A model generated the notes under the pieces. It did not search any database. It saw only the letters and a program-made list of their open reading frames with translations, and was not told where the DNA came from. From positions 96,001-160,000 of the IMG/VR virus record IMGVR_UViG_3300033485_000002: a stretch of 64,000 nt of DNA; one strand, 5' to 3'. The stretch is from a virus. This document shows positions 1 through 39,368 of this stretch, piece by piece (within the stretch, counting starts at the first letter, position 1; each line of letters opens with the position of its first letter). Both the position numbers and the translations under genes were made by a program.

Positions 1-1
1 C

Positions 2-259
2 GTGACCAACCTGCTGGCCGCTGCTGGCCTGATGCGGGGTATTGGTGGTTGGCGTCCGCAGAAGGGGGCTGGTGACTTCGGGCAGTTCACGCTCGTTGAC
101 CAGGACAACCCCGAGTTCTTGGACATCGTTGCCACTGGTGGGCGTGAGCCGCAGGATCTGGCGCTGGCCGATCCTGAGTGTTTCGATAGCGAGACGGTGA
201 ACATGCTGTCGTGGTTCATGGCGGAAACCAAGCGGCGTGGTCTCAAGGTTGTGAGCTAG
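2..259 (+). CDS. 5'-truncated RAMP/Cas7-like protein (C-terminal G-rich loop); putative effector of the adjacent pentamer array (Vipr-like)
   Basis: Open from window edge; LLAAAGLMRGIGGWRPQKGAGDFGQF resembles the RAMP glycine-rich loop (GIGxWRPxxxGxFGxF); two genes upstream of the array. Confidence 0.7.
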   Translation: MTNLLAAAGLMRGIGGWRPQKGAGDFGQFTLVDQDNPEFLDIVATGGREPQDLALADPECFDSETVNMLSWFMAETKRRGLKVVS

Positions 260-267
260 GAGGAATA

Positions 268-747
268 ATGGAACACGAGCGGACGAAGATCATTCGGGAA
301 GAGCTGATCCGCCTTGAGAACTCGCTGGGGACGTTGACCCCGGACAAGGTGGTCGAAGCAGCTACTCCTGTGAAGAGTCCAATCCACCCTTGCTTCGATT
401 GGGACAATACCTCGGCAGGGCACAAGTACCGATTGGAGCAGGCGCGTGGTCTTATCCAGTCGGTGAAGTACCGGGTTACGACCGAGAAGAAGGTGTTTAC
501 GGTGGCTCGGTATGTGCGTGACCCGAGGGTGGACCCTCAAACGCAGGGGTATGTCTCGGTGCCGAAGCTGAAGGAAGATCCTGCTGCGGCCCTGAAGGCG
601 GTACAGTGGGAGTTTTCCAGAGTGCAGCAGGCACTGGAGCGTTTGGAGATCTTGGCCACGGTGCTGGAAGCCAAGTCGGTGGTTACGGCAGCCCGTAAGC
701 ACATGAAGCGGGTGCAGGCTAAGGTGGAAAAGTCTTTTGCGATCTAG
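268..747 (+). CDS. Conserved phage protein (LTPxxVVEAA...HxxFxWD...YRLxQAR family), accessory gene between RAMP-like gene and array
   Basis: AGGAGG SD then ATG at 268; LTPDKVVEAATPVKSPIHPCFDWDNTSAGHKYRLEQARGLI; stop at 747 abuts the array. Confidence 0.75.
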   Translation: MEHERTKIIREELIRLENSLGTLTPDKVVEAATPVKSPIHPCFDWDNTSAGHKYRLEQARGLIQSVKYRVTTEKKVFTVARYVRDPRVDPQTQGYVSVPKLKEDPAAALKAVQWEFSRVQQALERLEILATVLEAKSVVTAARKHMKRVQAKVEKSFAI

Positions 748-751
748 CCGA

Positions 752-1408
752 CATTGTCACGGTTTAGCTGTCAAGGTACGATCGGGATTGTTCGGGTTTG
801 TCAAGGAAAGTCAAGATCTGGCGCGGTCGGGTGAGGCTGTCGTGGTTCGGTCAGATCCGTTCAGGGATGTTAGGGAAAGATATGGTGTGTTCTGGTGGGG
901 GAAGATTCGGATGGGCAAGGTGAGGCTGTCCAGGTAAGGTTCGGTGGGATGGGGCGTGTTACGGCGACTTAGGGTTAGTCATGGGCAGGTTCGGCTGTCA
1001 CGGTATGGCACGTTAGTTTCGGGTTAGTCAAGGACGGGAACGGTGCGATCAGGTCTGATCCGGTCTGACTGTCACGGTACGTGTCGTAGGGTAGGAAAAG
1101 GCAAGGCTCAGCATGTTAGGGTTCGGTGAGGCTAGGCTGTCACGGTGTCGTGAGGATGGGACCGGCAGGGCCGGGTTCGTTGCTGGCGTGGCATATTTTG
1201 GCGGGGCTTGGCTGTCATGGTGATTTTTGCGTTCAGGCGTGATTGGGCCTGACAGGATTCGATTAGGCAGGGCCGGGTAAGGTTTGGCTGTCACGGTGGG
1301 ATATGGACGGATCCGGAAGGGAGAGATGCGTTCTGGCGGGGTCTGGTGGGGCTGGGTGAGACCGGGTGGGACGAGATTTGGTAAGATCCGGTCAGGTCTG
1401 ACTGGTAT
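752..1408 (+). ncRNA. Array of 8 putative gapped guide RNAs: tandem G-[GAT]-N + NN pentamers separated by a G(G/A)CTGTCAC-like linker (VIPR-type RNA array)
   Basis: Linkers at ~766, 835, 924, 993, 1067, 1135, 1210, 1286, degenerate at 1400; units of ~12-21 pentamers; in the 5 indel-free units 72 of 74 pentamers start with G and none has C at position 2; no credible ORF. Confidence 0.85.
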
Positions 1409-1411
1409 GTT

Positions 1412-1487
1412 GGGGGAGTAGCCCAACGGTAGAGGCGGAGGACTTAAAATCCTTTCAGTGTGGGTTCGAATCCCACCTTCCCCACCA
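1412..1487 (+). tRNA. tRNA-Leu(TAA), short variable loop, encoded CCA
   Basis: Acceptor GGGGGAG/CTTCCCC, anticodon arm GAGGA-CTTAAAA-TCCTT, T-loop GTTCGAAT, 3' ACCA. Confidence 0.93.
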
Positions 1488-1497
1488 ATGTGCTAAG

Positions 1498-1568
1498 GGG
1501 GGTATCACTCAGTGGCCGAGTAGCGGGCTTTTAACCCGCCTACCAGGGTTCGATTCCCTGTGCCCCCA
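1498..1568 (+). tRNA. tRNA-Lys(TTT)
   Basis: Acceptor GGGGGTA/TGCCCCC, anticodon arm GCGGG-CTTTTAA-CCCGC, T-loop GTTCGATT; no encoded CCA. Confidence 0.9.
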
Positions 1569-1582
1569 CTTTTGGAGCTAAT

Positions 1583-36629: not shown

Positions 36630-39368
36630 TTGAGTCATATTCTGGAGTTCCTCGATCTTGTTGACACTCCAGATACTTTTGGTGCGTCCGGAAGTATCTT
36701 AGTAGTCAATGGCACTGGAACTGCGCTGGAATTCGTCACGGGCGTCAACGCCAGTTCCATTGGTGGGTCAGCCGTTGGTACTTTAGCCCCATCAGATGGG
36801 CAAGTTATTGTTTTTGAGGGTGTAACGAATGACCAGTGGGAGGCTGTAACTCCGGTTTGGTTGCGTAAAGACGGGGATAGCATGACGGCAGGTGATCTGA
36901 CGTTATTTCAGAATCCGTCCAACAATATGCATGCGGCCAATAAGAAGTGGATCGAGGACAATTTCTCTGCCGGAAGTCATGCTCACGATTCTACTTATTT
37001 GAAGCTCGATGCCAGCAATGACCCGATGACGGGTACTTTAGAGTGGACCAATGCTGCTGGCCCGAGCATCATGAATGAGGCAGCAGACAGTACAAATCCT
37101 ACGCTCGTTCCTAACAAAGCTGACCCGGATACTGGAGTTGGCTGGAGTACTACAAATATCCTTTCCCTGGTTGCTGGAGGGGCAGAATCGCTTTCTGTTG
37201 CCGCTGGTACTGTTTCTATTGTAGCTAGTGATTTAGTACTAGCTAAAGCTCAGGAGTTACAAGGATTAGATTCTGAAGGTACCGCTCGTTCTCTAGTTTC
37301 TTTAAATGACTCAACGAATGTTGTTTACTTTGGGGATATACACAATAGTGCCGTTATCTCTGTTCTTGATACGTTAACTATTACAGGTGGGGATGTTTTA
37401 CTTGATAATAATGAAACGTATCAAGGAAAACTAGTAGGGGGTACCGTTGTTGGGTTTGCCGGGATAAACACTTCGGACCAAGTACAACTTGGGAACTCAT
37501 CTTACCCGCTAGATCTTATTGGGACTAAAACTGTAGCATTTCCCGCACTAGTGAATGCTGTTGCATTACAATGGCGAGATGCGACTGATACTGGTACAAT
37601 TACCGCACTTACTGTTAATTCGTCTAATGGTGTGGATGTTGGAACTACCTCATTTTTAACAACACTTAAAGGAACTTATATTGTTGCTGACGGGGATATT
37701 CGTGTTACTACTGGTGATGCAATTCAGTTCCAAAATGTTAGTGAAACTTGGTTAGATGCTTTATCGGTTACGAGTAGTGTTTTATACTTAGGAAGTTCTT
37801 TTGCTAGCATTGTTATCGATGACCCGATTTCAGCTAATGTTGTGTTAAATAATGCCATCGTGCTTCAGGGTAAAGAAGTTGGTGGTACTGCCCGAAACCT
37901 CATCCTGTTAAATGATAGTGACGAAGTTGAGGTCGGGTCTAGCTCCGTTGAGCTGAATTTTATGGGGACGCAAATTGATGCTGTCCCGATTCTTACGTGT
38001 GATCTAGTATTTAAGGATTCCGCAGGACCAACTATTTTAAACGAAGCCGCCACAGCTACAAATCCTACTCTTATTCCGAATAGGGCTGATCCTGACACAG
38101 GTGTAGGTTGGGGGACAACGAATGAAGCTACACTTATTGCTGGTGGTACAGAGGTTGTCCGAGTAGCGGGTGGTACAGTTACTGTAACTGCTAGTAATGT
38201 TGTACTAAGTAATGCTAAAGCGATACAAGGTAAAACAACCTCAGCGGCTGTACGAGAGTTAATTGGAGTTGATTCTAGTGATATAGTTGAAGTAGGATCT
38301 ACTTTTCTAGCCACTCTTATCAATGGTACAAGTGTTACATCCAACACGGATATTCGTGTGGATGGAGCAAACGCTTATCAGCTCAACCTTGGTGGAACAA
38401 GTGGTGTTTTCTCCGATGCTCTGAGTGTTGACAGCACGGGGTCTGATTTCGTTGTCCTTGGCAACACTAGTTACGAGACGAAGATCAAAACATCAGGTGG
38501 GGTAATTCTCGACAACGCAAAAGCGCTTCAAGGTACTGCTCTTATTACAGGTACCTTTTACGACCTTATCCAACTTAATGCTTCCAATGAAGTTGCTGTA
38601 GGCAATACAAGCGTAGCTTTGAATCTTCTAGGGACGCAAATTGATTCTATCACTGCTCTTGCGAATACTGTGTACCTTCAGGCGGAAGAGTCGGGAGGAA
38701 CTGCTCGTAACCTTATCGGGATGGACAGTTCTAATGATGTTGCTGTTGGTAGCACATCTAATACGCTTGACCTAAAGTGTACTGATTATGTAACTTTAGA
38801 TAATATGGGGGTTGTTAGAGTCGGTAATATTTCTGGGGGTAACTACACCGATATATCTGGTACTGCTGGGAGTCTGTACCAGTACGGAACTTCTATTGTT
38901 GATACGGAGAACTATGTAACAGCAGATGAGGGAGTACGCTCCAAATTATTTGAAACAAACAAGGTGCAAACTCTTGCCAATGATACTGCTGTAAACCCGT
39001 TTACGTGGAACGCAACGACTACTGGGGATCACATCTTCGTGATGATTCCTTATTCATTTTTCTGTTCGTATACTGAATCTTCCACGACAAAATACTTCCA
39101 ACAATCTGGGGTTTACTACTGGATGGGGTTCCATGACGGCACGAATATCAACTTGACCAGCATGTCAGGTTCTATCCCGACCCCGGTTACGGTTAATACG
39201 GGCACAGGAACAGTTGCCGTCACGATTAACGCTGGAGCAGATGGTACTCCTCCGAAAGGGCCGAACTGGAAGATTGCCGTTAGCGGGACAGGTACTTTCG
39301 TTTCCGGGAACGTTCAGTACTGCGTTATCTCTTGTGACTCTGACCATCGTGGGTTTAACACCCTTTAG
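36630..39368 (+). CDS. Long tail fibre protein with internal repeats (912 aa)
   Basis: GGAGG SD, TTG start; duplicated GPxIxNEAAxxTNPTLxPNxADPDTGVGW; repeated GGTARNLI/VxVGSTS units. Confidence 0.8.
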   Translation: MSHILEFLDLVDTPDTFGASGSILVVNGTGTALEFVTGVNASSIGGSAVGTLAPSDGQVIVFEGVTNDQWEAVTPVWLRKDGDSMTAGDLTLFQNPSNNMHAANKKWIEDNFSAGSHAHDSTYLKLDASNDPMTGTLEWTNAAGPSIMNEAADSTNPTLVPNKADPDTGVGWSTTNILSLVAGGAESLSVAAGTVSIVASDLVLAKAQELQGLDSEGTARSLVSLNDSTNVVYFGDIHNSAVISVLDTLTITGGDVLLDNNETYQGKLVGGTVVGFAGINTSDQVQLGNSSYPLDLIGTKTVAFPALVNAVALQWRDATDTGTITALTVNSSNGVDVGTTSFLTTLKGTYIVADGDIRVTTGDAIQFQNVSETWLDALSVTSSVLYLGSSFASIVIDDPISANVVLNNAIVLQGKEVGGTARNLILLNDSDEVEVGSSSVELNFMGTQIDAVPILTCDLVFKDSAGPTILNEAATATNPTLIPNRADPDTGVGWGTTNEATLIAGGTEVVRVAGGTVTVTASNVVLSNAKAIQGKTTSAAVRELIGVDSSDIVEVGSTFLATLINGTSVTSNTDIRVDGANAYQLNLGGTSGVFSDALSVDSTGSDFVVLGNTSYETKIKTSGGVILDNAKALQGTALITGTFYDLIQLNASNEVAVGNTSVALNLLGTQIDSITALANTVYLQAEESGGTARNLIGMDSSNDVAVGSTSNTLDLKCTDYVTLDNMGVVRVGNISGGNYTDISGTAGSLYQYGTSIVDTENYVTADEGVRSKLFETNKVQTLANDTAVNPFTWNATTTGDHIFVMIPYSFFCSYTESSTTKYFQQSGVYYWMGFHDGTNINLTSMSGSIPTPVTVNTGTGTVAVTINAGADGTPPKGPNWKIAVSGTGTFVSGNVQYCVISCDSDHRGFNTL

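What the first reader, a model, noticed from the sequence alone, without database searches (positions are those of the whole stretch)
775..923. Units 1 and 2 decode to consecutive parts of a phage HTH motif
Seen: unit 1 NN = AC CG TT CG TT AA AA AA CT GC CG GA, which reads T-R-[FL]-R-[FL]-[KN]-[KN]-[KN]-L-A-R-[ED]. Unit 2 NN = (GT) TC CA CC CA AT AG AA AT GT CT GG AA TC TG AA GA, which reads (V)-S-[QH]-P-[QH]-[IM]-[SR]-[NK]-[IM]-V-L-G-[KN]-S-[WC]-[KN]-[ED]. Joined: ...LARE-[xx]-VSQPQISNIVLGKSWK. Established: LAxx[YF]GVSxxxIxxIxxGKxW is a helix-turn-helix commonly appended to phage HNH/homing endonucleases. Inference: two adjacent guides tile one gene with a two-codon gap at the linker. This is a second example of the wobble-skipping code and may hint at how guides are acquired. 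The linker before unit 2 ends in GT rather than the usual AC, exactly what Val requires, so the linker's last 2 nt may also pair.
Basis: partly seen in the sequence, partly recalled or inferred. Interest (0 to 1): 0.88.

Follow-up and report, generated by a model that had tools for sequence, protein, structure and literature searches.

The report
Two VIPR guides spelling one HTH
These 150 bases are two neighbouring guide RNAs of a phage-borne VIPR system, a CRISPR-like DNA silencer first described in 2026; the second guide spells a helix-turn-helix motif of homing-endonuclease-type genes and the first may continue it, but no real target gene was found.

Summary
Window 746-1411 is an eight-unit array of NN-G[G/A/T][T/C/A] pentamers split by (G)GCTGTC linkers. 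It lies behind a Cas7-like gene and a small accessory gene in a 168-kb T4-like uncultivated phage.

The "wobble-skipping code" is not new. It is the published 1-nt-skip rule of VIPR systems (bioRxiv 10.64898/2026.04.26.720920). This scan has already met VIPR guides on other genomes and elsewhere in this one.

Unit 2 scores 23 bits against a profile of the C-terminal HTH of HNH_3 endonucleases. The profile members were chosen by their HNH motif, not by the HTH. None of 1.2 million shuffled or random guides reached that score.

Relaxed pattern scans hit only in-frame HTH genes, at 23/34 and 27/34 read bases.

Only the last four codons of unit 1 (L-A-R-E) fit the motif. They fit exactly at the claimed two-codon gap (p about 0.002 at that gap, about 0.01 over gaps 0-5).

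Units 7 and 6, read antisense, likewise tile one tyrosine integrase (tblastn E 4e-5).

No near-exact target for units 1 or 2 turned up in any collection searched (searches listed in the full report). The tiling is therefore suggestive, not shown. Verdict: a new member of a known kind.

The parts
1..258 (+). 3' end of the vipr-like gene. The whole gene is G000 95477-96259, 260 aa, and starts 523 bases before the window.
   Evidence: ORF. AlphaFold model with pLDDT 89.8. Best PDB matches are Csm3/Cas7 backbone subunits of type III and VII CRISPR complexes, E about 2e-6. Large family: 1560 representatives at E<=1e-3. PHROG 4652, unknown function.
268..746 (+). Accessory gene (vap-like), 159 aa.
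   Evidence: ORF. No Pfam family. PHROG 15946. A gene of 153-162 aa follows the vipr homologue in relatives L093-L096.
754..782 (+). Weak sigma-70-like promoter match at the head of the array.
   Evidence: TTGTCA-17-TACGAT, 9 of 12. A consensus match only.
768..772 (+). CTGTC linker before unit 1.
773..836 (+). Guide unit 1: 13 pentamers. Its last four dinucleotides, CT GC CG GA, read L-A-R-E/D.
837..841 (+). CTGTC linker between units 1 and 2. Each regular unit is 5n-1 bases long, so the pentamer register slips by one at every linker.
842..925 (+). Guide unit 2: 17 pentamers. It decodes to V-S-Q/H-P-Q/H-I-S/R-N/K-I-V-L-G-K-S-W-K-E/D.
926..1411 (+). Guide units 3-8 of the same array. Units 6 and 7 carry small indels. 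Units 3, 6, 7 and 8 decode to tyrosine-integrase motifs.
   Evidence: Units 7 and 6 joined and read antisense hit integrases at E 4e-5.
1412..1569 (+). tRNA-Leu(TAA) at 1412-1487 and tRNA-Lys(TTT) at 1498-1569, directly after the array.

Best explanation
Window 775-923 holds the first two guide units (vrRNAs) of a VIPR system carried by an uncultivated 168-kb T4-like phage. By analogy with the published systems, the Cas7-like Vipr protein is expected to polymerise along each RNA with one protomer per pentamer. It would bury the G-led triplet and present the two variable bases, which pair with double-stranded target DNA while every third target base (usually the codon wobble base) is skipped. 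The outcome would be transcriptional silencing of a rival element.

Unit 2 is most likely aimed at the turn and recognition helix, (F/Y)(G/N)-VS...I..IV.GKSWK, of a small helix-turn-helix module. That module occurs at the C-terminus of HNH and GIY-YIG homing endonucleases and also as a stand-alone protein of about 55 aa in phage-like elements.

The 3' end of unit 1 probably covers the preceding helix (L-A-R-E) of the same gene, leaving two unread codons under the linker. Two filaments would then sit side by side on one gene.

The rest of the array points at tyrosine integrases. The likely prey is therefore an integrating rival: a satellite or a temperate phage.

Shown here: the array anatomy, the Cas7 fold, the family-level match of unit 2 and the absence of self-targets. 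Inferred: binding, silencing, the identity of the target and the tiling.
For: - System: pentamers NN-G[GAT][TCA], with 74 of 76 G at the fixed position. The array follows a Cas7-like gene and a small partner gene. Relatives have the same gene pair followed by NNGGC arrays.
- RNA and self-targets: the array RNA folds less well than shuffles, z +1.76. There is no self-target under any skip rule.
- Published rule: read two bases, skip one, wobble-aligned, either strand.
- Unit 2 profile test: 23.0 bits at the expected register against an independently chosen HTH profile. 0 of 3 x 400,000 null guides reach it.
- Unit 2 pattern scans: the only exact hits to an 11-dinucleotide relaxed pattern in the JGI metagenome contigs and the 185,579 species genomes are in-frame HTH genes. 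These are L012 '...YNVSTETIRCIVVGKSWN' and L097 '...FGVSATMIRLIVLGKSWKE', the latter at 27/34 read bases.
- Unit 2 other searches: the top tblastn hits are HNH/NUMOD4 proteins. The only Pfam hit of the joined peptide is HTH_3, and it spans the junction.
- Unit 1: its best register on the profile is the one predicted by a 2-codon gap. Suffix score 7.9 bits, p 0.001-0.0025 at that gap and 0.007-0.015 over gaps 0-5.
- Precedent in the same array: units 7 and 6, read antisense and joined with a 5-codon gap, align ungapped to phage integrases at E 4e-5.
Against: - No near-exact target for unit 1 or 2: exact 10-dinucleotide halves gave nothing in IMG/VR. In family genes the match at read bases is only 21-23 of 34, no better than shuffled guides reach.
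- The 27/34 hit does not extend significantly beyond the 22 bases fixed by the pattern, and the other units do not converge on that contig.
- A word search of 5.8 billion proteins with the decoded peptide found nothing. tblastn E-values are 4-9 and the Pfam E-value is 0.06.
- The HTH family was chosen after seeing the decoding. The profile p-value of about 1e-5 must therefore be discounted for the many motifs a reader could have recognised.
- Nine of the 13 codons of unit 1 match nothing in the family.
- The fixed triplet here is looser than the published GGY. The 1-nt-skip rule has not been shown experimentally for this clade.
Confidence: 0.6

Rival explanations
1. Unit 2 is an HTH-gene guide, but unit 1 is an independent guide against some other, unidentified gene. 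On this reading the L-A at the right spacing is coincidence.
For: The whole of unit 1 scores only 1.5 bits and its first nine codons score -6 bits against the family. Only two conserved residues (L, A) carry the signal. Unit 1 has no hit of its own. The terminal GA is shared with unit 2 (both end GGTGAGG-CTGTC) and may belong to the linker.
Against: The suffix fits only at the predicted 2-codon gap, p about 0.01 after allowing gaps 0-5. The columns upstream of L-A are poorly conserved in the family, so a mismatch there is expected even for a true target. Units 7 and 6 show the same neighbour-tiling habit.
Confidence: 0.28
2. Both readings are chance resemblances. The guides have other targets, possibly not codon-aligned or read by another skip rule in this clade.
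For: No target was found. The pairwise and Pfam E-values are not significant. The motif was chosen post hoc. The scaffold triplet differs from GGY, so the rule could differ.
Against: 23 bits against a profile chosen through a different domain, with none of 1.2 million nulls reaching it. Every top DNA match of unit 2 in 81 loci lies in frame on the same motif. Other units of the array decode to integrase motifs with a significant tblastn hit, which validates the read-two-skip-one reading for this array.
Confidence: 0.07
3. Units 1 and 2 are one long guide. The GGCTGTC linker is an internal spacer that a continuous Vipr filament bridges while skipping two codons.
For: The decoded text runs on across the linker. 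The dinucleotide after CTGTC behaves as guide: V, +3.0 bits.
Against: The same linker between units 7 and 6 corresponds to about five unread codons, not two, so it has no fixed length on the target. The register slips by one base at each linker. That resembles the published staggered arrays, in which the end of one vrRNA is the start of the next. Published vrRNAs have 9-16 repeats, as each unit here does.
Confidence: 0.05

Closest known systems
VIPR systems (Vipr + vap + vrRNA). Exemplar: type II of Escherichia phage SUSP1 and a Pseudomonas fulva prophage. bioRxiv 10.64898/2026.04.26.720920, 10.64898/2026.04.26.720927, 10.64898/2026.10.15.759431.
   Same: Phage-borne. A lone Cas7-like RAMP gene plus a small partner gene. 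Non-coding arrays of five-base repeats with a fixed G-led triplet and two hypervariable bases. The guides decode as codon positions 1-2 of genes of rival elements, integrase/recombinase among them. No self-target.
   Different: The protein is 260 aa rather than about 20 kDa, and tblastn detects no similarity to cultured coliphage records. The fixed triplet is G-[G/A/T]-[T/C/A], not GGY. There is no long structured 3' tail: units are separated by a 7-12-base GGCTGTCAYGGT linker with a one-base register slip, closest to the 'staggered arrays' mentioned in the paper. Which of the seven published types this is was not determined.
C-terminal helix-turn-helix module of phage HNH_3/NUMOD4 and GIY-YIG homing endonucleases, as in Bacillus phage Kioshi gp207 and Escherichia phage Bas94 gp52. 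This is the presumed target, not the element itself.
   Same: The decoded L-A-R-E-xx-V-S-...-I-S-.-I-V-.-G-K-S-W-K has the spacing and the conserved residues of the family consensus LAEKFGVSRSTISRIVSGKIWKHI.
   Different: No family member matches the guide closely: the best are 23/34 and 27/34 read bases. The family usually has H after WK where the guide reads E/D. The nearest gene (L097) is a stand-alone 54-aa protein, not an endonuclease.
Class 1 CRISPR crRNA-Cas7 filaments (type I Cascade, type III Csm/Cmr).
   Same: The same protein fold. A periodic interruption of guide-target pairing by the backbone subunit.
   Different: No CRISPR repeats or cas1/cas2 next to the array. The period is 5 in the RNA and 3 in the target, instead of 6 and 6. 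The guide information is non-contiguous.

Membership tests
VIPR system | Stand-alone RAMP (Cas7-like) Vipr protein with an RRM core, glycine-rich loop and thumb. | tested here: met
   AlphaFold model pLDDT 89.8, pTM 0.84. Foldseek PDB: 104 matches at E<=0.001, led by Csm3, type VII Cas7, Cmr4 and Cas7-11. A conserved glycine-rich stretch G184..G188.G190..R193...G197. Individual thumb and G-loop contacts were not mapped.
VIPR system | Sequence relationship to a published Vipr protein. | tested here: inconclusive
   tblastn of the protein against 50,697 phage records hits only Mycobacterium and Gordonia phages at 27-29% identity. phmmer against PDB sequences finds nothing. Published Viprs are said to be very diverse, so this neither supports nor excludes membership.
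VIPR system | vrRNA: tandem pentanucleotide repeats with a conserved triplet (GGY or a related consensus) alternating with hypervariable NN, 9-16 repeats per RNA. | tested here: met
   Eight units of 12-23 pentamers. G at the fixed position in 74 of 76. Next positions G/A/T then T/C/A. All four bases occur at both NN positions. This is a variant consensus, which the paper allows for (NNNNG-type repeats).
VIPR system | Minimal locus: vipr plus a small vap gene, flanked by long non-coding DNA, mostly in viruses. | tested here: met
   virus record, 260-aa gene, 159-aa gene, then 665 non-coding bases. The same order occurs in relatives. The function of the vap gene is unknown.
VIPR system | Natural targets obey the 1-nt-skip rule, mostly with the skipped base at the codon wobble position. 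| tested here: inconclusive
   No target at 80% or more of read bases for units 1 or 2 (best 27/34 = 79%). In support: the codon-1-2 decoding gives an HTH motif at 23 bits and an integrase segment at tblastn E 4e-5.
VIPR system | No self-targeting by the guides. | tested here: met
   The best matches of units 1-4 and 8 in the phage's own 168 kb equal the shuffled-guide expectation under skips 0-3.
VIPR system | vrRNAs are expressed, bound by Vipr and repress a matching DNA target. | not testable with these tools
   Needs small-RNA sequencing, pull-down and a reporter assay.
Target: homing-endonuclease-type C-terminal HTH | Spacing and conserved residues [LIV]A..[FY][GN]VS...I..I..G..W. | tested here: met
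   All testable conserved positions are met by the decoded units at one ungapped register, with columns 16-17 left unread.
Target: homing-endonuclease-type C-terminal HTH | An actual gene of the family matching both guides. | tested here: not met
   None found in the collections searched.

The most novel reading that the evidence does not exclude
Neighbouring units of a VIPR array are written from neighbouring stretches of one target gene, on the same strand and in the same order. Units 1 and 2 do this in sense, with about 2 unread codons. Units 7 and 6 do it in antisense, with about 5 unread codons. If this reflects how guides arise rather than selection for conserved motifs, it would be the first footprint of guide acquisition in VIPR. 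One route would be recoding a contiguous piece of a rival gene into pentamers. Another would be an older long guide split by a linker. Guide acquisition is not explained in the three VIPR preprints read here.
Probability: 0.15. Interest if true: 0.8.

Novelty: new member of a known kind. Interest (0 to 1): 0.33.

Why it matters
On its own this is one more VIPR array, from an unusual clade with a looser scaffold triplet and short linkers, in an uncultivated freshwater-type T4-like phage.

It adds a possible new class of prey to the recombinases, regulators and polymerases already reported: an HTH module typical of homing endonucleases or small phage regulators. If the prey is a homing endonuclease, the phage would be using RNA-guided silencing to block gene invasion by co-infecting relatives.

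The more interesting point is that two pairs of neighbouring guides in one array seem to tile one gene each. A systematic survey of arrays with known targets could turn this into a testable clue to how vrRNA guides are made. That question is still open.

Tried and rejected
Unit 2 searches:
- Exact read-two-skip-one patterns, dinucleotides 1-10 and 8-17, in IMG/VR: 0 hits.
- Relaxed 11-dinucleotide pattern: 0 hits in IMG/VR, 1 in the JGI metagenome contigs, 1 in the species genomes. Both hits are family members, not targets.
- Full pattern with up to 3 mismatches: nothing in 401 Thermodesulfobacteriota genomes.

Other guide searches:
- Unit 1, dinucleotides 4-13, in IMG/VR: 0 hits.
- Unit 8 relaxed pattern in IMG/VR: 0 hits.
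- The remaining units were scanned over the L097 contig: no convergence.

Protein-level searches:
- The decoded peptide as a protein query. It was too short at first. Padded to length, it found no candidate.
- Word searches with the Kioshi HTH region and with the 54-aa L097 protein returned only the queries themselves.
- tblastn of the decoded peptide in phages and plasmids: E 4-9 only.

Relatives and own genome:
- Own genome: no self-target under skips 0-3 and no HTH of this family.
- Close relatives via Vipr: none by the single-protein route.
- Close relatives via portal: four short contigs, with no HTH homologue.
- Relatives cannot be drawn for a virus record.

Other:
- Rfam: only the two tRNAs.
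- A TRAP-like or Csr-like protein-binding RNA was considered before the VIPR papers were found. It was dropped because the periodic triplets are not (G/U)AG or GGA and a Cas7-like gene sits upstream.

Exact-pattern scans cannot see targets with several mismatches, so 'not found' here excludes only perfect and nearly all one-mismatch targets of unit 2 in IMG/VR.

Full report
WHAT IS THERE

The window is bases 96001-160000 of a single 168,260-bp IMG/VR virus record with a T4-type portal gene.

Between the stop of a 159-aa ORF (268-746) and tRNA-Leu(TAA) (1412-1487) lie 665 non-coding bases. CTGTC occurs eight times in them, at 768, 837, 926, 995, 1069, 1137, 1212 and 1288. Between these sites the sequence is a run of five-base units.

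In the indel-free units 1-4 and 8, the third base of the pentamer is G in 74 of 76 cases. The fourth is G/A/T (46/16/14) and the fifth is mostly T/C/A (49/14/10, with 3 G). The first two bases use all four letters.

Regular units are 5n-1 bases long, so the register slips by one at each linker. As RNA the region folds worse than its shuffles (z +1.76). A weak promoter-like match sits at 754-782. Rfam sees only the two tRNAs.

THE SYSTEM

The gene that runs into the window start is 260 aa (G000 95477-96259).

- It has no Pfam family, but it has a large family of homologues: 1560 representatives at E<=1e-3.
- A confident AlphaFold model (pLDDT 89.8) finds its best solved-structure matches in the Cas7-type backbone subunits of type III and VII CRISPR complexes (E about 2e-6, probability 1.00).
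- Its closest homologues on metagenomic contigs are likewise followed by a 153-162-aa gene and a non-coding run of NNGGC pentamers with short GGCAGAC or GGCAGTAG separators.

They describe Viral Interference Programmable Repeat systems:

- A lone RAMP protein (Vipr), an accessory gene (vap) and vrRNAs made of GGY/NN pentamers, or a related consensus.
- The NN bases pair with double-stranded DNA while every third target base is skipped. The skipped base usually falls on the codon wobble position.
- Targets lie on either strand, there is no PAM, and the outcome is transcriptional silencing of rival phages and satellites.

The 'wobble-skipping code' of the finding is therefore the published 1-nt-skip rule. 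This locus meets the structural criteria of the family with a looser scaffold triplet. It shows no BLAST-level similarity to cultured coliphage records. This scan has reported VIPR guides before, on other genomes and at another place in this genome.

THE OBSERVATION

The remark that the dinucleotide after the linker is GT in unit 2, against AC in most units, is also right.

IS THE HTH READING MORE THAN CHANCE?

tblastn of the decoded peptide gave only weak hits (E 4-9), but they lay in the C-termini of HNH/NUMOD4 endonucleases. Across Pfam, the only hit of the joined peptide was HTH_3 (E 0.06), spanning the junction.

To get a test that does not lean on the decoding, 80 IMG/VR loci of the HNH_3 family were fetched through their HNH motif.

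- 41 of 79 ORFs carry the motif [LIV]A..[FY][GN]VS...I..I..G..W.
- From 38 distinct copies a position-specific profile was built and converted to dinucleotide log-odds.
- Unit 2 scores 23.0 bits at exactly the expected register. The other units reach at most 6.4 bits.
- None of 400,000 shuffles of unit 2, 400,000 draws from the array's own dinucleotides or 400,000 uniform draws reached it. The nulls were searched over all offsets and both orientations, and their maxima were 19-21 bits.
- A fair per-motif p-value is about 1e-5. It must be discounted because the family was chosen after the decoding was seen. Allowing a thousand recognisable motifs and eight units, it is no longer overwhelming by itself.

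Independent support comes from pattern scans. A pattern fixing 11 of the 17 dinucleotides had no hit in IMG/VR, one hit in the metagenome collection and one in the species genomes. At most a few tenths of a chance hit would be expected in each, on my rough estimate of the collection sizes.

- The first hit is in frame on the HTH of a GIY-YIG/AP2-type ORF.
- The second is in frame on the HTH of a 54-aa stand-alone protein in a phage-like region of a Thermodesulfobacteriota MAG. It matches 27/34 read bases, including the nine residues IVLGKSWKE.
- In the 81 family loci, every top DNA match of unit 2 lies in frame on this motif.

NO TARGET WAS FOUND

- Both 10-dinucleotide halves of unit 2 and the 3' ten of unit 1 have no exact hit in IMG/VR.
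- Identities at read bases in family members (21-23 of 34) are no better than shuffled guides reach.
- The 27/34 hit does not extend significantly beyond the 22 fixed bases, and the other units do not converge on its contig.
- The decoded peptide shares no word set with any of 5.8 billion protein clusters.
- The phage has no self-target and no HTH of this family.
- At the 80% threshold used in the literature, chance hits are expected in databases of this size for a 17-unit guide (my calculation). A convincing target would need about 31/34 or better.

THE TILING CLAIM

With unit 2 anchored on the profile, unit 1 was placed upstream at gaps of 0-5 codons.

- Only the 2-codon gap gives a positive score. 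The last four dinucleotides (L, A, R, E/D) give 7.5 bits and the best suffix gives 7.9 bits.
- The p-value is 0.001-0.0025 at that gap and 0.007-0.015 over all six gaps.
- The first nine codons score -6 bits, close to what random sequence gives in these weakly conserved columns.
- Over all offsets, unit 1's best register is also the predicted one, but with a total of only 1.5 bits.

A second case exists in the same array. Units 7 and 6, read antisense and joined with the five-residue spacing usual between the HxLRH and LGH boxes, align ungapped over all 34 positions to phage tyrosine integrases (E 4e-5). Neighbouring units aimed at neighbouring stretches of one gene, on the same strand and in the same order, thus occur at least once more.

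The unread stretch differs between the two pairs (about 5 codons against 2). This argues against the linker acting as a fixed bridge within one long guide.

VERDICT

- The stretch is two guides of a VIPR array, an already described kind of system.
- Unit 2 very probably (about 0.85) spells the recognition region of a homing-endonuclease-type HTH module of a rival element.
- That unit 1 continues the same gene is more likely than not (about 0.6), but rests on two conserved residues at the right spacing and on one analogy.
- The acquisition idea is open speculation.

Noticed in passing
window 1137-1287 (units 6 and 7): Read antisense and joined with five unread codons, units 7 and 6 spell KLRLYDLRHTCA.SM.....NPKITSERLGHSTV. 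This aligns ungapped to tyrosine integrases of Bacillus phages (E 4e-5). It is a second pair of neighbouring guides tiling one gene. Both units carry small indels (+1 and +2 bases).
   Followed up: partly
window 768-1411: Regular units are 5n-1 bases long (69, 89, 69, 74), so the pentamer register slips by one base at every GGCTGTC linker. This may correspond to the 'staggered arrays with 1-nt overlapping vrRNAs' mentioned in the VIPR preprint.
   Followed up: no
L108:2120-2375 (Mycobacterium phage Mattes, MH155871.1 about 36710-36965): The 'intergenic' DNA upstream of gene 52, a 27.7%-identical homologue of this Vipr-like protein, is a clean NNGGC pentamer array. A one-base unit (ATGGC-A-GGC) divides it into units of about 11 pentamers. 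This looks like an unannotated VIPR in well-sequenced Cheoctovirus mycobacteriophages, and would be a good place to test guide-target rules.
   Followed up: partly
L093:5300-5680 and L096:1600-1840: The closest homologues of the Vipr-like gene (50-56% identity) carry NNGGC arrays with different short separators (GGCAGAC/GGCAAGTC, GGCGGTAG/GGCAGTAG). The separator therefore evolves with the clade.
   Followed up: no
L097:5444-5932 (Thermodesulfobacteriota MAG contig JBMORA010000066.1): Two paralogous small ORFs (82 and 54 aa) share the motif W.KV.EIRKMY..GGYK..A..FGVS...IR.IV.G.S. They sit next to a 159-aa HTH protein in what looks like a phage-like region. This shows that the HTH module also exists as a stand-alone protein.
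   Followed up: partly
window 1412-1569: Two tRNA genes, Leu(TAA) and Lys(TTT), follow the guide array directly on the same strand with no terminator-like site between. They may be co-transcribed with the array.
   Followed up: no
whole genome G000: Strong strand asymmetry: G 29.2% against C 23.3% on the strand that carries nearly all long ORFs of the window.
   Followed up: no
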